This document shows, in pieces, positions 33,667-43,100 of a stretch of DNA of 64,000 nt. The notes under the pieces are model-generated. The model did no database searches and was not told where the DNA came from. It saw only the letters and a program-made list of their open reading frames with translations. This stretch comes from Escherichia phage T5_ev219. Made by a program: the position numbers and the translations under genes. Where the stretch lies: the sequence record NC_134263.1, one strand, 5' to 3'. Within the stretch, counting starts at the first letter, position 1. The number at the start of each line of letters is the position of its first letter.

Positions 33667-33743
33667 TGGCGCGACCGATGGGATTTGAACCCACATTCTC
33701 TCCCGTGACAGGGGAGTACCATTACCAAGCCAGCCCCGGTCGC
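33667..33743 (-). tRNA. tRNA-Asp (GTC)
   Basis: Perfect acceptor; loop CTGTCAC. Confidence 0.75.
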
Positions 33744-33752
33744 ATAATTTAT

Positions 33753-33938
33753 TTACTCAGCTTTGAGTTTTTCAATAGCTGCATTAAGTTCTTTAAGAAA
33801 CTCTTTTCGTACATTAAGACGATTGAGACTTACTAGTATATCATGTTTAAGTTCTTCGATGTATTTCTTTTCAACTTCAATATTGTTGATAGTGCTATCA
33901 CGATGAACTTCTAACTGTGCAATTACATTCTTGGACAT
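33753..33938 (-). CDS. hypothetical coiled-coil protein
   Basis: 61-aa ORF. Confidence 0.4.
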   Translation of the reverse strand: MSKNVIAQLEVHRDSTINNIEVEKKYIEELKHDILVSLNRLNVRKEFLKELNAAIEKLKAE

Positions 33939-34040
33939 GCTTGTTTCCTCAGTTATTAATGAAAATGGTATCTGTGGCTGAATTCGATGTCAGCAATGAT
34001 AGCTGGTTGGCTACCGGTTTACTTAACTCTACACAGAATT

Positions 34041-34118
34041 TGGCGGTTCCTGCTGGATTCGAACCAGCAACCCTCAACTTAACAAGATGCCGCTCTAACC
34101 AATTAGAGCTAAGGAACC
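34041..34118 (-). tRNA. tRNA-Asn (GTT), tentative
   Basis: Perfect acceptor, D and T arms; weak anticodon stem; loop TTGTTAA. Confidence 0.55.
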
Positions 34119-34613
34119 ATATAAGTCAGAACTAGAGTTAATACGTTCTAGATATTTACTAAGATCCCTAGAATTTATACTAAACCACTCATGTTCTTTT
34201 AAATCTTTGAAATACTGGTGAATTAGTTTTTCACCTTTTCGTTTGTCAAACCAAAAAGACCAATGCTCTAACTTATAATCCCTATAAGGGGAATAAGTCT
34301 GATATTGAGCTAATCTCTCTTTTGGATTTTGACTCATACCTATTTTATACTGATTTTTCCATGCAGGATTACTAATACAGTATACAAAACCTTCAGAAAT
34401 AGGAAGTTTATTTTCCTGCTTAAACTTTATAAAGGAAAGTGCAGCAAGTTTTCTCGAATACATAGTATTTGTATTCTTTTTGGTATTACCATTGGTTCCT
34501 GAAAGATTTATATATTCTTCCATAAATCTCTGGATTAGTTCTGCGGTTATATAGAAGGGCTCATTAGTAACAACGCCTTTCTTTACCAAACTATCAAAAA
34601 CTTTTGTATGCAC
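34095..34613 (-). CDS. GIY-YIG-like domain protein
   Basis: 172 aa; GFVYCISNP...YKIGMSQNP..R pattern; last 7 codons and stop overlap the 5' end of tRNA-Asn. Confidence 0.55.
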   Translation of the reverse strand: MHTKVFDSLVKKGVVTNEPFYITAELIQRFMEEYINLSGTNGNTKKNTNTMYSRKLAALSFIKFKQENKLPISEGFVYCISNPAWKNQYKIGMSQNPKERLAQYQTYSPYRDYKLEHWSFWFDKRKGEKLIHQYFKDLKEHEWFSINSRDLSKYLERINSSSDLYGSLALIG

Positions 34614-34633
34614 TACTTCTTTCCTTTAGTAAT

Positions 34634-34709
34634 TTGGACGACCGCATGAGATTTGAACTCACATAAAAAGGATTTGCAATCCTTCGCCTAAGCCATTCAG
34701 CCAACGGTC
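34634..34709 (-). tRNA. tRNA-Cys (GCA)
   Basis: Loop TGCAAAT. Confidence 0.65.
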
Positions 34710-34897
34710 GATTTATCTTGTTTTTCGAGATCTTCAAATTCTAAATCATTGAAGTTCCCTAGAGTACGGGAGTAGAACCCGTCTCCTGCGTCATAGCCTG
34801 ATTTGCCACAATCACACATTTTAAATTCACGAAGATGTGTGAAAATATGCTCAGAACCACAACACTTAAATCTAACTAATCGTTTCATTAGTTTCAT
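34697..34897 (-). CDS. small zinc-ribbon-like protein
   Basis: 66 aa; CCGSEH...CDCG; 3' end overlaps tRNA-Cys 5' end. Confidence 0.45.
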   Translation of the reverse strand: MKLMKRLVRFKCCGSEHIFTHLREFKMCDCGKSGYDAGDGFYSRTLGNFNDLEFEDLEKQDKSTVG

Positions 34898-34946
34898 TAG
34901 CTTCTCCAGTTCAATTTATATAATTATTATATAGAACTTTTGGAAA

Positions 34947-35231
34947 CTAAGCAACTACATTTTTTAAGAATTTGATGTCTTTCTTCTTCTTATATTTCCA
35001 CGTTAATGGATTCTGTCGATTGTGAACGCTTGAGATCTTCGTCTCGTCAAAGTTCTTCAATATCATGTAATCACAAGATAATTGTTCTAATGGAATGTGA
35101 TCACCGTCAAAAGCATATACATAAGGCTGTTGACTAGCACGATAATGATAGACTTTGTTAATTCTACGTTTCAGCGACTTATCAGCGCAGTAAATAAAGA
35201 AGTTTTCAGGATGCATCAGCATCTCCTTCAA
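34947..35231 (-). CDS. hypothetical protein
   Basis: 94-aa ORF. Confidence 0.45.
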   Translation of the reverse strand: MKEMLMHPENFFIYCADKSLKRRINKVYHYRASQQPYVYAFDGDHIPLEQLSCDYMILKNFDETKISSVHNRQNPLTWKYKKKKDIKFLKNVVA

Positions 35232-35233
35232 TT

Positions 35234-35308
35234 TGGTGCACCCTGTTCGTATCGAACGAACCTCTCAAGCTCTTCAGGCAAGCGCTAATCCATCTCAGCT
35301 AAAGGTGC
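35234..35308 (-). tRNA. tRNA-Phe (GAA), tentative
   Basis: Good acceptor and T arm; loop CTGAAGA; partial anticodon stem. Confidence 0.55.
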
Positions 35309-35315
35309 AAATTTT

Positions 35316-35391
35316 GGCAAACCTACTAGGACTCGAACCTAGACCGTACGGTTTTGGAGACCGACATGCTGTCCAGTAACACTCTAGGAAT
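35316..35391 (-). tRNA. tRNA-like, Trp (CCA) anticodon arm but unpaired acceptor stem (possible pseudogene)
   Basis: Good D, anticodon and T arms and 3' CCA; 5' and 3' acceptor strands not complementary. Confidence 0.35.
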
Positions 35392-35399
35392 GCAGAAAT

Positions 35400-35476
35400 T
35401 GGCGTCCTGTGCGGGGATCGAACCCGCAAATCCTACCTTGAAAGGGTAGTGACTTTACCAGTTTGTCTAACAGGAC
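35400..35476 (-). tRNA. tRNA-Glu (TTC)
   Basis: Perfect acceptor and anticodon stems; loop CTTTCAA. Confidence 0.7.
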
Positions 35477-35483
35477 TTAAATT

Positions 35484-35574
35484 TGGTGTTGGATGATGGA
35501 GTCGAACCACCCGAGACCCTTCCGAGTCGGCAGATTTACAGTCTGCTTCGCTACCTCTACGATACTAATCCAAC
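35484..35574 (-). tRNA. tRNA-Tyr (GTA), class II
   Basis: 91 nt; perfect acceptor; anticodon stem GCAGA/TCTGC; loop CTGTAAA. Confidence 0.7.
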
Positions 35575-35702
35575 ATATTTAAAAGTATTCAAATACTAGT
35601 TTAAACACTTTTAAATATGTTTCCGAATTAGATAACTATTATACCAAGTTTTAAGGCACTGAGCAAGTCAAATTTTAAAGAACTTGCTCAGTGCTGTATT
35701 AG

Positions 35703-35978
35703 TTAGTCGAACTTAGGAGTGACAGTTAAGGAGAACGGAAGTTCGAAAACTTCTTCGCCCTCATTACTAACGGTAACTACACGACCTTTAAGTTCAGACA
35801 TTAAAATATCAATATCAGCTTTTGCATCTGGAGCCATGCCAGCTTCAATACATTTAGCTTTAACTTCCGGTAAAAGCTCTACGTTATAGAGATAGAGCCA
35901 CTCAATCTCACCTTCCCAGTCTTCCCAGGATTTGCAGATTGCACTTTCAATACCAGTTGCTACAACACGATTTTGCAT
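35703..35978 (-). CDS. hypothetical protein
   Basis: 91-aa ORF behind a family promoter. Confidence 0.5.
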   Translation of the reverse strand: MQNRVVATGIESAICKSWEDWEGEIEWLYLYNVELLPEVKAKCIEAGMAPDAKADIDILMSELKGRVVTVSNEGEEVFELPFSLTVTPKFD

Positions 35979-36068
35979 TAATTAACTCCTTCATCAATTT
36001 ATATAACTATTATACCAGAAATTTAAAGTAAAAGGCAAGTACATTTTTAAAAATTCTGTTTGGAGGAG

Positions 36069-36275
36069 CTAAACTCCAGATTTTTCGGCCAAGTCTAGAC
36101 TAATAAGAGTTATAGCCATAATTGCTGCACCGTGTTCTTTTTCTCCGGTGTTTTTAGCAGAGTCTATAATATCCTTAATCTGTTCGTAATAACTTTTTAC
36201 TTCTTGTTCAATGCCTGCCTCGGCTATCATGCCTTTAGCCATGAATCGTTGCATGGTAATTTCAGGATTAGCCAT
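36069..36275 (-). CDS. hypothetical protein
   Basis: 68-aa ORF. Confidence 0.45.
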   Translation of the reverse strand: MANPEITMQRFMAKGMIAEAGIEQEVKSYYEQIKDIIDSAKNTGEKEHGAAIMAITLISLDLAEKSGV

Positions 36276-36450
36276 GTTGTTTCTCCAGTTTCATTTTTAA
36301 TAGTTTACAGATGAAATCAACGTCTTCATCTGTGCCTAAGTCTCTATCCTCAAGGGTCGCCTTGAAGTTTTTCGTCAATTCCATGAGGATGATTTCCCTA
36401 GAACGACGTGTTGGCGGAGGTGGATGTCTATACATCTTATTTCCTTAATT

Positions 36451-36527
36451 TGGTAGGGGTGGTGGGATTCGAACCCACAAAACCTGAATTTTAAGTCCAG
36501 TACCTATGCCAATTCGATTACACCCCC
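36451..36527 (-). tRNA. tRNA with TAA anticodon (Leu codon UUA) but short variable loop
   Basis: 77 nt; good acceptor, anticodon and T arms; D-loop AATTGGCATA shared with 31792..31868. Confidence 0.55.
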
Positions 36528-36628
36528 GTGTAATCAGTTTATTAGTTGATACATATTATAGCCTAAAGAAAACCCTACTACTAATCCTACTAACCAACCA
36601 ATATAATAATCTTTTAATTTCACGGGTG

Positions 36629-36814
36629 TCAACCTCGTTCAATATCTAGAGAAATACCACAGGTAGGATTAATGCCTGTGCCTTTGCACGTCGGACAAAC
36701 CCAGATATTACAGAATGTATCCCCTGCTTCTGCATCAGAACTTTCTCCAACTCCTAGACAGTCAGGACAGGCACATTCTTCTAGCTCTTGCTTGAGTTCT
36801 TGAAACTTAGACAT
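36629..36814 (-). CDS. small zinc-ribbon protein
   Basis: 61 aa; CACPDC...CPTCKG. Confidence 0.5.
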   Translation of the reverse strand: MSKFQELKQELEECACPDCLGVGESSDAEAGDTFCNIWVCPTCKGTGINPTCGISLDIERG

Positions 36815-36823
36815 ATAGTTTCC

Positions 36824-37012
36824 TTATTCAATTACTTTTGAGGCTTCAAGGGAGTCGATATAGTGTACGTTTTCTACCATAATCATATAATCTGCCACTT
36901 TATCCATAGCCTGAGCTTCAGAGGTAGCCCTGGCTAACCTATATCCTTTTTTATATTCATCCGGGTATTCCCTATCTGGAATAAACACAACATAAACTAG
37001 GTATAGTTCCAC
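36824..37012 (-). CDS. hypothetical protein
   Basis: 62-aa ORF. Confidence 0.4.
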   Translation of the reverse strand: MELYLVYVVFIPDREYPDEYKKGYRLARATSEAQAMDKVADYMIMVENVHYIDSLEASKVIE

Positions 37013-37033
37013 TTGTAACCCCTCTAATTAAAC

Positions 37034-37111
37034 TGGTGGCTCCCCGAGGATTCGAACCTACGTACCTTCCGGTTATGAGCCGGGTGCTCATACCATATGA
37101 GCTTGAGAACC
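37034..37111 (-). tRNA. tRNA with CAT anticodon, E. coli fMet-like anticodon arm
   Basis: Anticodon arm CCGG-CTCATAA-CCGG; D stem GCTC/GAGC; weak T stem. Confidence 0.5.
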
Positions 37112-37117
37112 AGAATT

Positions 37118-37206
37118 TGGCGGAAGAAGTGGGAATCGAACCCACAAGGCTATATTTCAAACCGACAGATTAGCAATCTGCTGCAATACCGTTATGCTAT
37201 TCTTCC
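37118..37206 (-). tRNA. tRNA-Ser (GCT), class II
   Basis: 89 nt; perfect acceptor; loop TTGCTAA. Confidence 0.65.
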
Positions 37207-37310
37207 GAATTTATAAGATATATTATATTAGAAATTTAGCTTCATAGCAAGAAAATTTTTCAAGTTTTCGGTAGACATCTCATCCACATCTACAGGAGAA
37301 ACAAATCCAT

Positions 37311-37745
37311 TTAATTGTCTAGCAAATTTTCACCAGCAGGATCATTATCCCCAACAGCTACCAATTTAAAAGGTAATAATTTCAGTTGCTTTAATAACGC
37401 TTTTCCTGGAGAAGAACCCAACATTGCTAGGGCTGGATAACCAGCGTTATGTAACGCAACTGCCTTAAATACAGATTCAGCGATCAATACTACTTTTTCA
37501 TCTCCATTGAGAGTTTCTAGTCCCCATACACACTGGGTAGTAGAATAAGTAAAATATTTAGCTTCAAAGGGACACTTACCATGACCTTTTGGAGCAGAAG
37601 GATTATAAGTTTGATAGCCCCTCAACATCCCAGAGAAGTCATACAACGGGACTGTTAGCCATCCTTCCGGACTTAACCAGCAATGATATTTTTCTGTATC
37701 AAATCCTCTAGATAAGAGGTGCTGTGTTAGCTCATCAACATTCAT
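37311..37745 (-). CDS. Toprim-domain protein (primase-like C-terminal fragment)
   Basis: Track ORF trimmed to Met18 because Met1 lies inside the promoter; LIAESV...ALHNAG...AMLGSS...VGDNDPAG resembles DnaG Toprim motifs. Confidence 0.45.
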   Translation of the reverse strand: MNVDELTQHLLSRGFDTEKYHCWLSPEGWLTVPLYDFSGMLRGYQTYNPSAPKGHGKCPFEAKYFTYSTTQCVWGLETLNGDEKVVLIAESVFKAVALHNAGYPALAMLGSSPGKALLKQLKLLPFKLVAVGDNDPAGENLLDN

Positions 37746-37920
37746 ATCTGGTTCCTCTCTCAAATTTATAGATATATTATACAGAGAATTTAGCATTCAA
37801 GCAATCAAATTTTTTAACTTTTTAGAGGAAAATCATAGGGCACTTAAGGGCAGCAGATAAGTGGTGAGGACCAAAATTTGTGACCCCACTAAAAATCCGG
37901 GGGCAATTTTTAAAGACCCT

Positions 37921-37949
37921 TTGACATTTTCGCCGGGGTAGTGTAAAGT
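37921..37949 (+). promoter_or_regulatory. sigma70-like promoter for the plus-strand cassette
   Basis: TTGACA, 17-bp spacer, TAAAGT. Confidence 0.45.
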
Positions 37950-38011
37950 ATATGTTATGGATGAGTGATCAAAGAGACACACATTTTCTATATACTAGGA
38001 GGTGTCAAAAA

Positions 38012-38992
38012 ATGACAGAAGAAGTAGCTAAGAGTCCTGAGACCGTCGCTAGCGTAGCAGCAGAACTGCATCGTCACGAGGAATCAGATAAGAAAAAGTG
38101 GGAGAAGGTCAGAGCCTACGAAGAAGAACATCGTGAACACGATGATAAAGATGAAGAAGATGACGATGATGTACGTTGTCATAAATATGGAAAATATAAA
38201 ATGCAAGAACCAGTAAACGTATTTACTAACGGCTTCCCTGGCATGGGTGCATTCCCAGCTAACGCAAGTGCTTTCGGTGGAGAAGGTATGGGTCTATTCG
38301 GAGCTATCCTAATCGGTGCTCTATTAACCGGCGGATTTGGTGGTTTTGGTGGTTTTGGTCGTGGTGCTGGCGTTGCCGCTGAAGGAACCGCTGTGGACGC
38401 GATCCTTTCTAACCAGGATACTGCAAGTATTCTAGCTGCAATCAATACTACTCGTACAGAAGCTAACCAGGGCACTGGGGCTGTTCTAAGTGCAGTAAAC
38501 GGTGTGGGAGCTGCTCAAGCTGCTAGCACTCAGCAAGTTCTGACTACTATCTACGGTACAGGTGCTAATCTGTCAAACCAGATCTGTGCTGAAACTCGTA
38601 ACGTTATTCAGGGTCAGTTCGATCTTTCTCGTCAGATGGATCAATCTTTCGCTGCTAACCAGATAGCACGTGCTCAAGATAAGTTTGACTCTGCTCAGAT
38701 TGCTTTCCAGCAGTCTATTCAGACCAACAACCAGTTTGCCGCTGTTCAGGCTCAGATGTGCGCTAACCAGAACGCTATCGAACGTCAGCTTGCTGAATGT
38801 TGCTGTGAGCTTCAGACTGCGATCGCTGGTGTAACTACTGCACGTATCCAGGACGAACTGAATGAATGCCGTCTGCGCGAAGCAATCGCTGCAGGTAGCG
38901 GTGCAAATGGTCAGGTAATCAACCAAATCGCTGTAAGTCTTGGTGCTATCACTCAGACTCTGGCTGGTCTGCAGGCTAAACTGCCGGCTTAA
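38012..38992 (+). CDS. Gly/Ala/Gln/Asn-rich low-complexity protein with central hydrophobic Gly-rich segment
   Basis: Track ORF trimmed to MTEEVAK with AGGAGG RBS; acidic N-terminus, GMGLFGAILIGALLTGGFGGFGGFG segment, Q/A/N-rich C-terminus with ECCCEL. Confidence 0.6.
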   Translation: MTEEVAKSPETVASVAAELHRHEESDKKKWEKVRAYEEEHREHDDKDEEDDDDVRCHKYGKYKMQEPVNVFTNGFPGMGAFPANASAFGGEGMGLFGAILIGALLTGGFGGFGGFGRGAGVAAEGTAVDAILSNQDTASILAAINTTRTEANQGTGAVLSAVNGVGAAQAASTQQVLTTIYGTGANLSNQICAETRNVIQGQFDLSRQMDQSFAANQIARAQDKFDSAQIAFQQSIQTNNQFAAVQAQMCANQNAIERQLAECCCELQTAIAGVTTARIQDELNECRLREAIAAGSGANGQVINQIAVSLGAITQTLAGLQAKLPA

Positions 38993-39013
38993 AATTAAGG
39001 GGAGGAGCCCATT

Positions 39014-39430
39014 ATGAGTAAATATGGTTTTGTGAACAACGGATTTAATCAACCAATGGGCTCCCAGCAGCCCGTTCCGGGTCTGGATAATCCTTACCTA
39101 CAACAGTTGCAACAGCGTTTAGCAGAAGCGCAACAGATGCAGCAACAACTCCAGCAAAACCCTGGAAGTGTGAGTCCTATGCAAATGATGCAGCAAATGA
39201 GCGGGCAGTCGCAAATGCCTCAACAAATGCATCAACAGGTGACTCAGCAGCAAGTTCAGCAGCAAACCCAACAACCGCAGGTTTCTGCGGAAGGACAGGC
39301 AGTACTAGCCCTTTTCGAAGACTTCGCAAAGACAGAGGATGGGAAGCAGCTTGTATCACTTATGGGTAAGTTTAATAGCTTCTGCCAAAGCCAAATTGCA
39401 AAAGCTCAAAATAGCGGTAATAACTCCTAA
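39014..39430 (+). CDS. glutamine-rich low-complexity protein
   Basis: 138 aa; GGGAGG RBS; poly-Q/QQ-rich middle. Confidence 0.55.
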   Translation: MSKYGFVNNGFNQPMGSQQPVPGLDNPYLQQLQQRLAEAQQMQQQLQQNPGSVSPMQMMQQMSGQSQMPQQMHQQVTQQQVQQQTQQPQVSAEGQAVLALFEDFAKTEDGKQLVSLMGKFNSFCQSQIAKAQNSGNNS

Positions 39431-39439
39431 GGAGGAATT

Positions 39440-39634
39440 ATGTGTTGCAGAAAATCTGTTTCGTGCTGCCCAATGCCTGTAGCACGTTGTTGCTCTCCAG
39501 CAATGTTTACGCAAATACCGGCGTTCAATCCGTTTGCCTTTAAGCCTACTCTTATCCTGCCCCCTAGAGTAGATTTTCAGTCAAGATTGGCCTCCCGTAT
39601 GGGTGGTTGCTGTAACAAGAGTATATGGTTCTAA
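39440..39634 (+). CDS. Cys-rich small protein with four CC doublets
   Basis: 64 aa; AAGGAGG RBS; MCCRK..SCCP..RCCSP...GGCCNK. Confidence 0.5.
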   Translation: MCCRKSVSCCPMPVARCCSPAMFTQIPAFNPFAFKPTLILPPRVDFQSRLASRMGGCCNKSIWF

Positions 39635-39649
39635 GGAACCAAACAATAA

Positions 39650-39686
39650 AGCCCCTAGTCGAAAGACTTAGGGGCTTTTCTTTTAT
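39650..39686 (+). terminator. rho-independent terminator of the plus-strand cassette
   Basis: GC-rich hairpin followed by TTTTCTTTT. Confidence 0.7.
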
Positions 39687-39687
39687 C

Positions 39688-39735
39688 TTAAATACAGAAA
39701 AGCCCTGCGCTCTCCAGGGAACGCAGGGCTTACTT
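39688..39735 (-). terminator. rho-independent terminator downstream of SPFH gene
   Basis: 8-bp stem gccctgcg/cgcagggc then U-run on minus strand. Confidence 0.65.
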
Positions 39736-39754
39736 CGAATATTACGTGTGGGTA

Positions 39755-40702
39755 TTACTTGTTACGCATATCCATAATCATCTGGCCATCGTAACCAGTG
39801 CCAACCACAGTCTGCGGTACGCCACCTTGATATTTCTGAGCACGAATCATCTCAACTTCCAGTTGTTTCCAACGAATCATCTCAGGAGTAATGGTACGTT
39901 GCAGTGCGGCGTTAGCTTCAGCTTCTTTCTTAGCTGCGTACAGTTTAGCATCTGCGTCACGTTCATTAGCGATAGCTTGGTTGTTGCGAGCTTCACGATC
40001 TGCTTCTGCTTGTTTAACTTTTTGCTGTGCTTCCTGTTCAACACGAGCTAATTCAGCTTTAGCAGCATTAACCTGTTCTTCACGAACTTTGGTATTCTGT
40101 ACCTGTTCCATGATTACCGGTGGCAAAGTAATATCCTGAAGGAATACCTGCTTAACTGTGTAACCATATGGGCGTGCATACTCTTCAACTTCCTGTTGAA
40201 TTGCAGTTTGCAATTGAGCCTGAATTTTAGCATCAAACAAATCTTGTGCTTTAGGTACAGACTTACCAAACTCACGAATAGTAGACAGTAATTTTTCAGT
40301 TACATACTTGTCTAGTGCCTGATCCTGAGTACCTGCATTAATACGGTTAATCGGTGCCTTAGAACCATCAAACTGCAACATAACAGTCAGGTCAACAGTG
40401 GATTTAAACTTATCCTGACTAGGAACCTGAAGTTTATCTAATTTTACAGCAATATCTTTTGTACTGAAAGTATCGAAAGATGCAAACGGGTTTACAATAT
40501 GGAAACCAGGTAATACTGGATTAGGGTCTACTTTACCCAGGAATGTTTGAGTTTTAACCGTACCATCAGAAACAATAGTATATGAATTAAAAGCTAGGAT
40601 TAAACCTGCTAAACCAACTACAGCACCAATCCCCCAACGTTTAATAGTACGAATTACTTTCTGCTCAGAAGTTAGTTCTTTCATATTTTTAGTATTAAAC
40701 AT
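39755..40702 (-). CDS. SPFH/band-7 (prohibitin/HflC-like) membrane protein
   Basis: 315 aa; N-terminal TM, SPFH-like core, long Ala/Glu/Gln-rich coiled-coil tail; AAGGAA RBS. Confidence 0.65.
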   Translation of the reverse strand: MFNTKNMKELTSEQKVIRTIKRWGIGAVVGLAGLILAFNSYTIVSDGTVKTQTFLGKVDPNPVLPGFHIVNPFASFDTFSTKDIAVKLDKLQVPSQDKFKSTVDLTVMLQFDGSKAPINRINAGTQDQALDKYVTEKLLSTIREFGKSVPKAQDLFDAKIQAQLQTAIQQEVEEYARPYGYTVKQVFLQDITLPPVIMEQVQNTKVREEQVNAAKAELARVEQEAQQKVKQAEADREARNNQAIANERDADAKLYAAKKEAEANAALQRTITPEMIRWKQLEVEMIRAQKYQGGVPQTVVGTGYDGQMIMDMRNK

Positions 40703-40736
40703 ATATTTCCTTTGTTTTAGTTACAGTTAATAAAAT

Positions 40737-40811
40737 TGGCCGAGGTGACAGGATTCGAACCTGCATAAAGGAATTTAGAAGACTCCTGCCTCTCCCTTAG
40801 ACTACACCCCG
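40737..40811 (-). tRNA. tRNA-Arg (TCT)
   Basis: Anticodon stem GGAGT/ATTCC; loop CTTCTAA; CCA encoded. Confidence 0.65.
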
Positions 40812-41313
40812 TTTAAGTATTTTTAAGAACTCTCGTAAAAACTCTTAAAAATACAGACGATACCGGGAGAGTCATAAGTCTCACTCATTAAGTATTTCAA
40901 GACAAAATACAGTAACGTCTATTATTTTCCAGTTTAAGTCAGGGTGACTTAGTGGTTATGTCCTGCGGTATATTGAGGACTCGGTTAGGCTTGGGGTCAT
41001 GACTTCCCGCCTTTTGCTGCTACTCAACAGGAGTTATCGCGAATTACCTGTGCTATTGTGCACCATTAGTGACATCTCTCATGTCAGCATTTCCCACTTT
41101 GTGGATAGCTTGAAAAACTACTCCGATATGGAGAAAGAACTTCACTATCCTAGAATACCTTCTAAAGTTCTTCTTTAGCCTGGACATAGTTAAATCGTAA
41201 TAAAACTATTCAGCAGACTGGTTGGTTAGTCTGGAACCAACTACCGCGTGGTTTAGGCAGTGCGCAACTAACCTCGGAAGCTTTTACGTTAAAAGCATCA
41301 GTTATCCAGTTCT

Positions 41314-41385
41314 TACCGACCGTAGGATTCGAACCTACATCTTCCACCAGTTACGGCTTGGTAATACCAATTATACTAGGACGGC
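41314..41385 (-). tRNA. tRNA-like element (no encoded CCA; possible pseudogene)
   Basis: T arm GTAGG-TTCGAAT-CCTAC; acceptor with one mismatch; non-canonical anticodon loop. Confidence 0.3.
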
Positions 41386-41645
41386 AGTGTTACTACATAA
41401 GTGATTTCCACACCCCACTATTTATAAATTAGAGAAGAGTTTAGGGGAGAGGTTTCAGACGCCCCATTTTACACGTTCTAGCCACTAACCGGGATTGCCG
41501 CCCCCTGTGTACTAGTTTTCCAACTAACCCACCGACTCTATTCAATGCGCTCCGGTTGGGATTCTGCACTCAGCGTAATCGGCTCGCTGTTCTCTAATTT
41601 ATGAATATATTATACAGAATTTATAGGCATTTAGCAAATAAATTT

Positions 41646-42089
41646 TTAATTAAATTCGCCAGCAATCTGAGCAGCAGTACCACCATCATAACGCCCAGGA
41701 AATTCTTCCTTAATCGCTTTCATCAGCATACCTTTTGTAATTCCAGGGTTTAGCTTAACTAATTCTGCAAAGTATTTACGAATCTCAGTATCAGATAACT
41801 GAGGAGGCAGATACTCCTGCAACCACTTATTTAGAATGTATTCATACTGAGCGGACTGCAAGCTATAACTATCAAGATCTTGACCATGAAGTTTAGCTTT
41901 CATCTGGTTAATGCTTTTTAGTTGAGCTTTGAGATAAGACACAAATTGTTCAGAAGTGATGAAATCTTTATCAATACGCTGAAGATCCCCGATTATGGTC
42001 TGATAGCTTTTAGCGACTTCTTTATCAGAACCATTAAACTTAGAATCCTGCAAAGCTCTACGCAAAACATCTAAAATATTCTCTTCCAT
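41646..42089 (-). CDS. GatB/YqeY-domain protein
   Basis: 147 aa; C-terminal GITKGMLMKAIKEEFPGRYDGGTAAQIAGEF resembles YqeY C-terminus. Confidence 0.5.
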   Translation of the reverse strand: MEENILDVLRRALQDSKFNGSDKEVAKSYQTIIGDLQRIDKDFITSEQFVSYLKAQLKSINQMKAKLHGQDLDSYSLQSAQYEYILNKWLQEYLPPQLSDTEIRKYFAELVKLNPGITKGMLMKAIKEEFPGRYDGGTAAQIAGEFN

Positions 42090-42327: not shown

Positions 42328-42795
42328 TTAAGTTTTAGTGACAACAGGCTTATAAAATGTATGTCCCTTAATCTTAGTTGTTTTCTTAAACTTCTTTGTC
42401 CAGTATGGTTTATCTTTACCACTATGGAAGTATAAAGCTCCATGTGTAGGATCTTGTGGTAAATCAACGTAGTATATCACTCTAGCTAAATTCTTGGCGG
42501 TTTGCCAAGCCTCATCAGTTTTATCAACTTTTGGTCTCTTAGATACCCAAGAGAACTGGTTAGACTGATATACTACTTTACAGTAGGAATCTGGGAATTT
42601 ACCGGAGTTTACACGGTTTTTAGTAACATGTGCAATCGCCGTCATTCCCTTTATGCCCTCACCACGACTTTCGAAATAGATATTTTTAGCAATGCAATCT
42701 ATTTCTTTTGCATCGTGCGATGCCTGACTACTAAAGCTGAAGGTAAGGGCAGCTACTAAAAGCAAAGCTGCCTTCATTCTTTTTACTCCTGCCAA
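42328..42795 (-). CDS. secreted cell-wall hydrolase, SleB/CwlJ-like
   Basis: 155 aa; N-terminal signal peptide; CIAKNIYFESRGE...AIAHVTKNR...GALYFH pattern. Confidence 0.6.
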   Translation of the reverse strand: MAGVKRMKAALLLVAALTFSFSSQASHDAKEIDCIAKNIYFESRGEGIKGMTAIAHVTKNRVNSGKFPDSYCKVVYQSNQFSWVSKRPKVDKTDEAWQTAKNLARVIYYVDLPQDPTHGALYFHSGKDKPYWTKKFKKTTKIKGHTFYKPVVTKT

Positions 42796-43100
42796 TCATA
42801 TTCAACACGATTGGGATTTTCTTTATACCCTAAGTCAAGCAAATCATTACGCATAGTTTGCTTAGCTACGGGATTCGAGGTTACTAGTACCACTTTCTTT
42901 GGTCTCTGCCCAAATTCTAAGAGTAAACGAAGAATTTGATAACCTTCCATACCATCTACAGCCAAGTCATTATCCATATAAACAAAGTGGCCTGTGGTAT
43001 CAGTTTTATTCAGAAACTCGACAGCGGCTTCTGGGGTTCGAATGATAATGTCCATTCCGTGAAGATTACGCACATCATCAATCAAAATATGAAAAGTCAT
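42783..43100 (-). CDS. stand-alone CheY-like receiver-domain protein
   Basis: 105 aa; ILIDDV acidic pair, YMDNDLAVDGMEG phospho-acceptor region, VVLVTS, downstream Lys. Confidence 0.5.
   Translation of the reverse strand: MTFHILIDDVRNLHGMDIIIRTPEAAVEFLNKTDTTGHFVYMDNDLAVDGMEGYQILRLLLEFGQRPKKVVLVTSNPVAKQTMRNDLLDLGYKENPNRVEYDWQE

What the first reader, a model, noticed from the sequence alone, without database searches (positions are those of the whole stretch)
39755..40811. Phage-encoded SPFH (HflC/prohibitin-like) protein
The 315-aa membrane-anchored SPFH protein with a long coiled-coil tail resembles host HflK/HflC, which regulate FtsH. A phage copy could modulate FtsH-dependent turnover or membrane organisation during infection. 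An isolated tRNA-Arg sits immediately upstream.
Basis: partly seen in the sequence, partly recalled or inferred. Interest (0 to 1): 0.45.

Follow-up and report, generated by a model that had tools for sequence, protein, structure and literature searches.

The report
T5 phage SPFH membrane protein (T5.080)
The gene is real and is the already catalogued SPFH/Band-7 membrane protein T5.080 of T5-like phages, strongly conserved in nature yet dispensable in the laboratory; it is not a copy of host HflK/HflC and its function is still unknown.

Summary
Window 39755..40702 (-) encodes a 315-aa protein with one N-terminal membrane helix, a Pfam Band_7/SPFH domain (E 1.8e-17) and a predicted 76-residue helix. 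tRNA-Arg(UCU) lies 35 nt upstream on the same strand.

The window is a T5-like phage, and the gene is the ortholog of T5.080. Relatives occur in 740 deposited phage genomes, many of them already annotated as SPFH.

It is not an HflK/HflC copy:
- Among E. coli SPFH proteins only QmcA aligns well.
- By fold, erlin and prohibitin come first and HflC third.
- There is no second SPFH gene and no NfeD partner.
- The database label "lipoprotein" is wrong here, because the protein has no cysteine.

It belongs to a small separate subfamily shared by T5-like, T4-like and other phages. Morganella and Providencia chromosomal copies nest within the phage clade.

dN/dS is about 0.01, yet the viable T5 st0 deletion strain lacks the gene. 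It is therefore an accessory gene that selection maintains in nature.

The most likely mechanism is a periplasm-facing SPFH cage on the inner membrane, with an unknown client. The FtsH idea is untested. Genes that act in the periplasm lie nearby (rI antiholin; a SleB-like hydrolase), which points equally well to envelope or lysis control.

Known gene, open function: low to moderate interest.

The parts
39755..40702 (-). CDS of the 315-aa SPFH/Band-7 protein, ortholog of T5.080 (stop codon included)
   Evidence: ORF list. Pfam Band_7 E 1.8e-17. PHROG 200 E 2e-86. Same position and 95.5% DNA identity to T5. dN/dS 0.008-0.015 against T5-like orthologs.
40571..40636 (-). Codons 23-44: the single N-terminal membrane helix (signal-anchor). 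It is preceded by a 22-residue tail carrying 6 Lys/Arg.
   Evidence: Hydropathy maximum of 1.79 at residues 25-43. AF2 helix 12-39. Counts of Lys/Arg in the N-terminal tail, compared with E. coli controls.
40028..40549 (-). Codons 52-225: SPFH/Band_7 domain as matched by Pfam (the alpha/beta core spans residues 41-192 in the model)
39893..40120 (-). Codons 195-270: one long helix with an 11-residue repeat, equivalent to the 'wall' helix of SPFH cages
   Evidence: AF2 helix 195-270. Across the family, the distance between two conserved anchor motifs takes only the values 52, 63, 74 and 85 residues.
39758..39892 (-). Codons 271-315: conserved C-terminal segment (TITPEMIRWKQL...GGVPQTVVG...), with a second helix 273-290 and a tail predicted with low confidence
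   Evidence: Invariant columns in alignment A1. AF2.
40708..40712 (-). Ribosome-binding site AAGGA, 5 nt before the ATG
   Evidence: Read directly from the sequence. A ribosome-binding site is annotated at the same place in phage Lindwurm.
40737..40811 (-). tRNA-Arg (anticodon UCU), immediately upstream on the same strand
   Evidence: ARAGORN. Rfam tRNA 49.3 bits. Corresponds to T5t25 in T5. The SPFH gene contains no AGA or AGG codon.
40812..41600 (-). Non-coding stretch equivalent to T5 'RNAX' (a stable RNA of unknown function). It includes a tRNA-like element at 41313..41386.
   Evidence: T5 annotation. 91-95% identity to T5, with indels. ARAGORN and Rfam.
41609..41637 (-). Sigma-70-type promoter TTGCTA-17-TATAAT, at the position of T5 promoter P16-17. 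It is the likely start of the RNAX-tRNA-Arg-SPFH transcript.
   Evidence: Promoter scan, 10 of 12 positions match. T5 annotation. Co-transcription is inferred, not shown.
39648..39731 (-). Two tandem GC-rich hairpins with U-runs downstream of the stop codon (39700..39731 and 39648..39679). This is the bidirectional terminator shared with the convergent + strand genes.
   Evidence: Terminator scan. RNA fold -46 kcal/mol, z -5.95. Annotated in T5 as an 'efficient bidirectional rho-independent terminator'.

Best explanation
This is the T5.080 ortholog, an accessory early-region gene of T5-like phages that encodes a stand-alone SPFH protein.

Shown:
- It is a full-length SPFH protomer with a membrane helix, an SPFH domain, a long helix with an 11-residue repeat, a second helix and a C-terminal tail.
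- It belongs to a small subfamily distinct from HflK, HflC, QmcA and YqiK.
- It is under strong purifying selection, yet it is dispensable for plaque growth, because T5 st0 lacks it.

Inferred:
- It is transcribed from the P16-17-like promoter as the last gene of an RNAX-tRNA-Arg-SPFH unit. It ends at the double hairpin.
- The Lys/Arg-rich N-terminal tail stays in the cytoplasm. The helix spans the inner membrane, and the SPFH domain and long helix lie in the periplasm.
- Like every SPFH protein solved so far, many copies assemble into a closed dome. The dome fences off a patch of inner membrane together with the periplasmic parts of the proteins inside it.
- The client inside the cage is unknown. 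The effect would be to shield or confine an inner-membrane or periplasmic process during infection. Candidates are proteolysis by FtsH, holin/antiholin or cell-wall-hydrolase action, and entry of superinfecting DNA.
- That effect gives an advantage in natural hosts but not in laboratory culture.
For: Identity:
- Pfam Band_7, E 1.8e-17.
- PHROG 200, E 2e-86.
- Synteny with T5.080 and 95.5% DNA identity to T5.
- 740 phage records carry a relative.

Architecture:
- AF2 model, mean pLDDT 78.
- Helix length varies only in steps of 11 residues. The spacings 52/63/74/85 occur in 1/108/10/1 of 120 sequences. This is expected if the helix must keep its register in a laterally packed wall.

Orientation:
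- The N-terminal tail carries 4-6 Lys/Arg. HflK and HflC, whose SPFH domains are periplasmic, carry 2. QmcA and YqiK, whose domains are cytoplasmic, carry 0.

Selection and dispensability:
- dN/dS is 0.008-0.015 at dS 0.18-0.28.
- The T5 st0 deletion removes wild-type coordinates 33,681-41,878, which include T5.080.

Transcription unit:
- Promoter and terminator scans agree with the T5 annotation.

Cage-forming behaviour of HflK/C and QmcA-YbbJ is taken from PMC13086221.
Against: - Oligomerisation was not tested; only a monomer could be modelled.
- Topology rests on the positive-inside rule. A cruder version of that rule, the Lys/Arg difference between the two flanks, failed to separate the E. 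coli controls.
- No client was identified. No conserved partner gene exists across phage or bacterial loci.
- The last 25 residues of the model have pLDDT below 50.
- No published functional study was found.
- Co-transcription with tRNA-Arg is taken from the T5 annotation and from consensus motifs. It is not supported by RNA data for this phage.
Confidence: 0.6

Rival explanations
1. FtsH modulator. The phage cage surrounds or competes for host FtsH in the way HflK/C does. This would change the turnover of membrane or regulatory proteins during infection.
For: The predicted periplasmic orientation is the same as that of HflK/C. The closest folds, prohibitin and HflC, are both partners of FtsH-type AAA proteases (role of HflK/C from PMC13086221; role of prohibitin with the m-AAA protease from general knowledge).
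Against: - There is no specific sequence similarity to HflK or HflC.
- The gene is a single gene, not a heterodimer pair.
- Chromosomal members of the subfamily occur as lone genes with no conserved ftsH or hfl neighbour.
- T5 is strictly lytic, so the classical CII/HflKC logic does not apply.
- Nothing in the genomic context points to proteolysis.
Confidence: 0.2
2. Regulator of lysis timing or of superinfection. The periplasmic cage confines or protects holin/antiholin complexes or a secreted cell-wall hydrolase. Alternatively, it blocks the inner-membrane step of DNA entry by a second phage.
For: - In five T4-like loci the gene directly follows rI (antiholin, PF24205) and DUF5856.
- In T5-like phages, in Proteus phage Privateer (Grimontviridae) and in an unclassified 153-kb phage, it lies 1-4 genes from a SleB-type (PF07486) hydrolase. 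The window's copy of that hydrolase has a signal-peptide-like N-terminus.
- The SPFH proteins are 55-77% identical between these backbones while the hydrolases are only 27-39% identical. The linkage is therefore not one recent module transfer.
Against: - Proximity inside variable accessory regions is weak evidence, and no background rate was computed.
- Other lineages (L115, L120, L121, L123, Vibrio phage eugene) show neither neighbour.
- From general knowledge, the T5 holin and main endolysin lie elsewhere in the genome.
- T5 st0 lyses normally enough to serve as a standard laboratory strain (general knowledge). However, that deletion leaves the hydrolase gene intact.
Confidence: 0.25
3. General membrane stabiliser. 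The scaffold keeps the inner membrane tight and energised while the phage perforates and remodels it, without a specific protein client.
For: SPFH proteins are broadly described as organisers of membrane microdomains with stress-related roles (PMC13086221). No conserved partner gene appears in any context. SPFH genes occur in many unrelated phages and giant viruses.
Against: This is a non-specific hypothesis with no direct support here. The very strong sequence conservation of the whole periplasmic part suggests specific contacts rather than a purely physical role.
Confidence: 0.15
4. A decaying or neutral passenger gene with no function.
For: It lies inside the deletable region of T5, and the st0 strain lacks it. 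At least one natural phage, NG_S8, keeps only a 42-codon remnant.
Against: - dN/dS is 0.008-0.015.
- 678 of 740 phage records carry a near full-length copy.
- The gene is retained across at least four phage families.
- It has an intact ribosome-binding site, promoter and terminator.
Confidence: 0.02

Closest known systems
T5.080 of Escherichia phage T5 (PHROG 200; labelled 'lipoprotein' or 'SPFH domain-containing protein')
   Same: Same gene. It has the same length (315 aa), the same neighbours (tRNA-Arg, RNAX, bidirectional terminator) and 95.5% DNA identity, with almost no amino-acid changes.
   Different: Nothing of substance differs. The label 'lipoprotein' does not fit, because there is no cysteine and so no lipobox.
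E. coli HflK/HflC (FtsH-regulating SPFH cage)
   Different: - No specific sequence similarity: hhalign covers only 42-46 columns next to the membrane helix.
- One gene instead of a paralogous pair.
- FtsH binding is unknown.
E. coli QmcA (stomatin-like; forms a cage with the NfeD protein YbbJ)
   Same: It is the closest E. coli relative by sequence. hhalign gives probability 96% over 208 columns, and blastp gives 23% identity over 260 aa with E 8e-8. The wall helix has a similar 11-residue repeat (alignments).
   Different: No NfeD partner is present in the window or next to any homolog. QmcA has no charged N-terminal tail and faces the cytoplasm, whereas the phage protein is predicted to face the periplasm.
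Eukaryotic prohibitins and erlins
   Different: Identity is 10-19%. These proteins form hetero-oligomers (PHB1/2, erlin1/2), whereas here there is a single gene. The membrane system is also different.
Chromosomal singleton SPFH genes of Morganella/Providencia and of methylotrophic and other Gammaproteobacteria
   Same: Same subfamily: 57-59% identity (Morganella/Providencia) and 31-41% identity (the other bacteria), with the same domain order and length. They also stand alone, without NfeD or a paralog.
   Different: They are encoded in ordinary chromosomal contexts, not in phage. In the NJ tree the Morganellaceae copies nest inside the phage clade, next to a divergent T5-like phage. This suggests transfer from phage to host.

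Membership tests
SPFH / Band 7 superfamily (Pfam PF01145) | Significant match to the Band_7 profile above the curated cutoff | tested here: met
   64.4 bits against a 23.6-bit cutoff, E 1.8e-17, residues 52-225.
SPFH / Band 7 superfamily (Pfam PF01145) | Alpha/beta SPFH fold followed by a long helical region | tested here: met
SPFH / Band 7 superfamily (Pfam PF01145) | N-terminal membrane anchor | tested here: met
   Single hydrophobic segment at residues 23-44.
SPFH / Band 7 superfamily (Pfam PF01145) | Assembly into a large ring or cage oligomer | not testable with these tools
   Only a monomer could be predicted. The indirect hint is that helix length changes only in 11-residue steps.
HflK/HflC (FtsH regulators) | Closer in sequence to HflK or HflC than to other SPFH branches | tested here: not met
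   hhalign gives HflK probability 7% and HflC 68% over 42 columns, against QmcA 96% over 208 columns. No HflK or HflC chain appears in the PDB sequence searches.
HflK/HflC (FtsH regulators) | Two adjacent paralogous genes that form a heterodimer | tested here: not met
   The gene stands alone, and no second SPFH ORF is found in the 64-kb window by tblastn. It is also a singleton in other phages and in bacteria.
HflK/HflC (FtsH regulators) | N-in topology with the SPFH domain in the periplasm | tested here: inconclusive
   The N-terminal tail carries 4-6 Lys/Arg, like HflK and HflC (2) and unlike QmcA and YqiK (0). A cruder charge-difference measure did not separate the controls.
HflK/HflC (FtsH regulators) | Binds and encloses FtsH | not testable with these tools
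   No complex prediction or experiment is available.
Stomatin-like SPFH with an NfeD partner (QmcA-YbbJ type) | NfeD gene in the same operon | tested here: not met
   YbbJ and YqiJ give no tblastn hit in the window. No recurrent partner lies next to the homologs.
Stomatin-like SPFH with an NfeD partner (QmcA-YbbJ type) | Best sequence similarity among E. coli paralogs | tested here: met
   hhalign E 2.9e-9. phmmer against PDB finds QmcA with E 3.3e-6.
Bacterial lipoprotein (the label carried by T5.080 and PHROG 200) | Lipobox with an invariant cysteine after the signal peptide | tested here: not met
   The protein has no cysteine at all, and 20 of the 25 aligned family members also have none.
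T5.080 orthologous group (PHROG 200) | High-scoring full-length match and conserved position in T5-like genomes | tested here: met
   PHROG 200 E 2.2e-86. Synteny with T5, Lindwurm and a divergent T5-like contig.
Known anti-phage defence proteins (PADLOC) | Match to any defence-system model | tested here: not met
   No PADLOC family at E up to 0.1.

The most novel reading that the evidence does not exclude
The gene defines a phage-borne clade of periplasm-facing, homo-oligomeric SPFH cages. This clade has moved between T5-like, T4-like, Privateer-like and other virulent phages, and into Morganellaceae chromosomes. It would act as a virus-built membrane compartment that controls a periplasmic or inner-membrane step of infection. 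Examples are gating holin/antiholin or a secreted cell-wall hydrolase, excluding superinfecting phages, or caging FtsH. That would be the first assigned function for any viral SPFH protein.
Probability: 0.2. Interest if true: 0.6.

Novelty: already known. Interest (0 to 1): 0.27.

Why it matters
SPFH proteins build cages that partition membranes in all domains of life. Viruses from T5 to giant viruses carry them, yet no viral copy has an assigned role, and a 2026 paper still calls their presence in phages unclear (PMC13239085).

This copy sits in one of the best-studied model phages. A natural deletion strain (T5 st0) already exists, and the gene is under very strong purifying selection. That makes it a convenient entry point for asking what a viral SPFH cage encloses.

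As a scan result, however, it is a re-discovery of an annotated gene. The proposed FtsH link gains no support from the sequence.

Tried and rejected
- **NCBIfam and PADLOC scans.** No hit, so there is no equivalog name and no link to a defence system.
- **Plasmid collection.** No homolog.
- **'Lipoprotein' label.** Rejected, because the protein has no cysteine.
- **Recent capture of host hflK/hflC.** Rejected by the profile comparisons.
- **NfeD partner or second SPFH gene in the window.** None found by tblastn with YbbJ, YqiJ, HflK, HflC and YqiK. This was a single-sequence search, so a very divergent NfeD could have been missed.
- **Conserved neighbours in 59 bacterial loci.** None is shared across clades.
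- **The convergent T5.077/T5.078 genes as obligate partners.** Rejected. Their homologs are confined to T5-like phages and a few Pseudomonas phages (221 records), whereas SPFH relatives occur in 740 records across families.
- **tRNA-Arg(UCU) serving this gene's codons.** Rejected, because all 14 Arg codons are CGT or CGC.
- **Topology from the Lys/Arg difference between flanks.** The measure failed on the HflK and HflC controls, so only the N-tail count was used, with a caveat.
- **AFDB fold library.** Not available.
- **Literature searches.** The terms T5.080, T5p078, SPFH with phage, anti-phage, superinfection and Demerecviridae returned no functional study.

Full report
**What the window is.** The region around the finding is 97-99% identical in DNA to T5-like phages such as Salmonella phage VSe12 and Escherichia phage OSYSP. 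The window carries 23 tRNA genes on the minus strand and has about 39% G+C. The gene order matches phage T5 itself. The finding is therefore in a Demerecviridae (T5-like) genome.

**The observation.**
- The ORF at 39755..40702 (-) encodes 315 aa. An AAGGA ribosome-binding site lies 5 nt before the ATG.
- Pfam Band_7/SPFH matches residues 52-225 with E 1.8e-17, far above the curated cutoff. PHROG 200 matches with E 2e-86.
- There is one hydrophobic segment at residues 23-44. It is preceded by a 22-residue tail with six Lys/Arg. The protein has no cysteine.
- An AlphaFold model built from 25 family members has mean pLDDT 78. It shows a membrane helix, an alpha/beta domain (41-192), a single 76-residue helix (195-270), a second helix (273-290) and a poorly defined tail.
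- tRNA-Arg(UCU) lies at 40737..40811, 35 nt upstream on the same strand.

The description is correct. The word 'isolated' needs qualifying, because a second tRNA-like element lies at 41313..41386. In T5, moreover, the tRNA, a 719-nt stable 'RNAX' and the SPFH gene are annotated between promoter P16-17 and a bidirectional terminator. The window has the matching promoter, TTGCTA-17-TATAAT at 41637..41609. It also has a double terminator hairpin after the stop codon. The gene uses no AGA or AGG codon, so the tRNA is a neighbour in a transcription unit and not a decoding aid for this gene.

**It is a known gene.**
- The ORF is the ortholog of T5.080, which RefSeq labels 'lipoprotein' and notes as similar to Aeh1 ORF064c and 44RR ORF098c.
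- tblastn finds relatives in 740 deposited phage genomes, 678 of them near full length. They include T5-like phages (90-100% identity), T4-like Straboviridae of Klebsiella, Enterobacter, Citrobacter and E. coli RB43 (74-78%), Aeromonas T4-likes (about 60%) and more distant Vibrio phages.
- Many records already say 'SPFH domain-containing protein'. The Band 7 hit in T4-like phages was tabulated in 2006 (PMC1524935).
- The label 'lipoprotein' does not fit, because there is no cysteine to lipidate.
- I found no paper that assigns a function. A 2026 paper states that the reason an SPFH protein is found in a phage genome 'remains unclear' (PMC13239085).

**Which kind of SPFH protein.**
A direct comparison of the family profile with the four E. 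coli SPFH proteins gives QmcA 96% probability over 208 columns, HflC 68% over 42 columns, HflK 7% and YqiK 7%.
- Sequence searches of the PDB find QmcA and prohibitins but no HflK or HflC chain.
- No NCBIfam or PADLOC model matches.
- A profile search of 1.84 billion representative proteins gives only 333 hits below 1e-10 and 1,909 below 1e-3. The family is therefore a small, distinct branch of a very large superfamily.
- The gene stands alone. tblastn finds no second SPFH ORF and no NfeD-like ORF in the window. No recurrent partner appears next to homologs in phages or bacteria.

It is a genuine SPFH protein, but it is neither an HflK/HflC family member nor a QmcA-NfeD-type system.

**Where the family lives.**
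- In reference bacterial genomes the subfamily occurs as a chromosomal singleton in Morganella and Providencia (57-59% identity). It also occurs in methylotrophic and other Gammaproteobacteria and a few other MAGs (31-41%).
- The neighbouring genes there are ordinary metabolic and transport genes, and they differ between clades.
- A neighbour-joining tree without bootstrap, rooted on QmcA, separates an environmental bacterial clade from a phage clade. The Morganellaceae copies nest inside the phage clade.
- Their nearest relative, P0113, is encoded on a divergent T5-like contig with the same gene order as T5: DHFR, ThyA, RNase H, Hydrolase_2, YqeY, Band_7.
- This pattern suggests exchange among unrelated virulent phages and at least one transfer into a host lineage.

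**Selection versus dispensability.**
- Against T5 and phage Lindwurm, dN/dS is 0.015 and 0.008 at dS 0.28 and 0.18. Against the T4-like phage Miller it is 0.08. The protein is under strong purifying selection.
- The sequenced T5 st0 deletion strain lacks wild-type coordinates 33,681-41,878. That interval contains T5.080, tRNA-Arg and RNAX.
- To my knowledge, T5 st0 is a routinely propagated laboratory strain, so the gene is not needed for growth on laboratory E. coli.
- One natural phage keeps only the last 42 codons.
Any role must be conditional.

**How it probably works.**
- Every SPFH protein solved at full length forms a closed multimeric dome on a membrane. The HflK/C and QmcA-YbbJ cages are summarised in PMC13086221, and the fold-search lists contain the others.
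- The phage protein has all the parts of such a protomer.
- Across 120 family members, the distance between two conserved motifs that flank the long helix takes only the values 52, 63, 74 and 85 residues. Length changes therefore come only in units of 11 residues. This fits a helix that must keep its lateral register in a wall of parallel helices. I take this as indirect support for a cage.
- For orientation, the N-terminal tail has 4-6 Lys/Arg. HflK and HflC, whose SPFH domains are periplasmic, have 2. QmcA and YqiK, whose domains are cytoplasmic, have none.
- The three best structural matches are the three SPFH families whose domain faces away from the cytoplasm.
- A cruder charge-difference measure did not separate the controls. 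Periplasmic orientation is therefore likely but not shown.
- My best explanation is an early-expressed, accessory, periplasm-facing homo-oligomeric cage that fences off a patch of inner membrane (confidence 0.6). The client is unknown.

**Candidate clients.**
- FtsH is possible by analogy with HflK/C and prohibitin, but nothing specific supports it (0.2).
- Genomic context points at least as much to envelope and lysis functions (0.25). In five T4-like loci the gene directly follows rI (antiholin) and DUF5856.
- In T5-like phages, in Proteus phage Privateer (Grimontviridae) and in an unclassified 153-kb phage, the gene lies 1-4 genes from a SleB-type PF07486 hydrolase.
- Between these backbones the hydrolases are only 27-39% identical while the SPFH proteins are 55-77% identical. 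The linkage is therefore not one recent module transfer.
- This evidence is weak. These are variable accessory regions, other lineages lack both neighbours, and I could not compute a background rate.
- A non-specific membrane-stabilising role (0.15) and a functionless passenger (0.02, contradicted by dN/dS) complete the list.

**Verdict.** The gene is already known and widely annotated, but its function is open. Interest is low to moderate. The useful additions here are:
- the rejection of the 'lipoprotein' and 'HflC' labels;
- the likely periplasmic orientation;
- the 11-residue quantised helix;
- the contrast between strong purifying selection and laboratory dispensability;
- the recurrent neighbourhood with periplasm-acting lysis genes.

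Noticed in passing
window 41313..41386 (-), within 40812..41600: A tRNA-like element lies inside the stretch equivalent to T5 'RNAX', a stable RNA of unknown function. ARAGORN calls it Ser(ACT) although it is only 74 nt long, and Rfam tRNA scores 37.9 bits. Some deposited records call it tRNA-OTHER. The stretch is 91-95% identical to T5, with indels.
   Followed up: partly
window 37952..38992 (+) and 39014..39430 (+): Two genes on the opposite strand (T5.077 and T5.078 equivalents) converge on the same terminator. Their G+C is 0.47 against 0.39 for the window. The first has an acidic N-terminus, a Gly-rich hydrophobic stretch and a CCC motif; the second is Gln-rich. Both belong to PHROGs of unknown function. 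Homologs of the first occur only in T5-like phages and a few Pseudomonas phages.
   Followed up: partly
window 39707..39711 (-), inside hairpin 39700..39731: The motif A|GCGC-A in the terminator hairpin matches the T5 consensus for a major single-strand interruption (nick). It lies at exactly the position annotated in T5, 44 nt after the T5.080 stop codon.
   Followed up: partly
window 42328..42795 (-) and 42783..43100 (-): A SleB-type cell-wall hydrolase (T5.083 equivalent, PF07486 in the T5 st0 annotation) has a signal-peptide-like N-terminus. Directly upstream of it lies a REC-like small protein (T5.084 equivalent, PHROG 1479). By eye, the N-terminus of a 112-aa ORF directly upstream of the PF07486 hydrolase in Proteus phage Privateer resembles this REC-like protein, so the same pair may occur there next to that phage's SPFH gene (not tested by alignment).
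   Followed up: partly
window 41646..42089 (-): A YqeY/GatB-like protein (PHROG 1460, 'tRNA amidotransferase') lies just upstream of the promoter of the RNAX-tRNA-Arg-SPFH unit. Deposited genomes annotate it variously as 'recombination-related exonuclease' or 'YqeY'.
   Followed up: no
T5 NC_005859 33,681..41,878 (roughly window 33.6-41.8 kb): The T5 st0 deletion removes the SPFH gene. It also removes tRNA-Arg, RNAX, T5.076-T5.079, about nine tRNA genes of the cluster and the 5' part of the YqeY-like gene. A 10-bp repeat lies at the junction.
   Followed up: yes
alignment A1 columns 256-278; residues about 245-256 of the window protein: Insertions and one deletion in the long helix occur only in multiples of 11 residues. 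The spacing between the two anchor motifs is 52, 63, 74 or 85, and the inserts repeat the motif AEAxxYAAxKE.
   Followed up: yes
L006 (NZ_JBHSCL010000010.1, Flagellimonas marina assembly, 178,077-bp contig): A contig in a bacterial genome assembly carries a 73%-identical SPFH gene and has the size of a T4-like phage genome. It is probably a phage sequence deposited within a bacterial assembly.
   Followed up: no
L074 1260..2914; L003 3259..4927: In T4-like phages the SPFH gene directly follows rI (antiholin, PF24205) and a DUF5856 gene, downstream of tk. The same order is seen in five loci.
   Followed up: partly
window 37311..37796 (-): A 161-aa ORF matches only the Toprim part of DNA primases (PHROG 849, profile positions 142-303 of 435). 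It is the T5.076 equivalent and looks like a stand-alone primase fragment.
   Followed up: no
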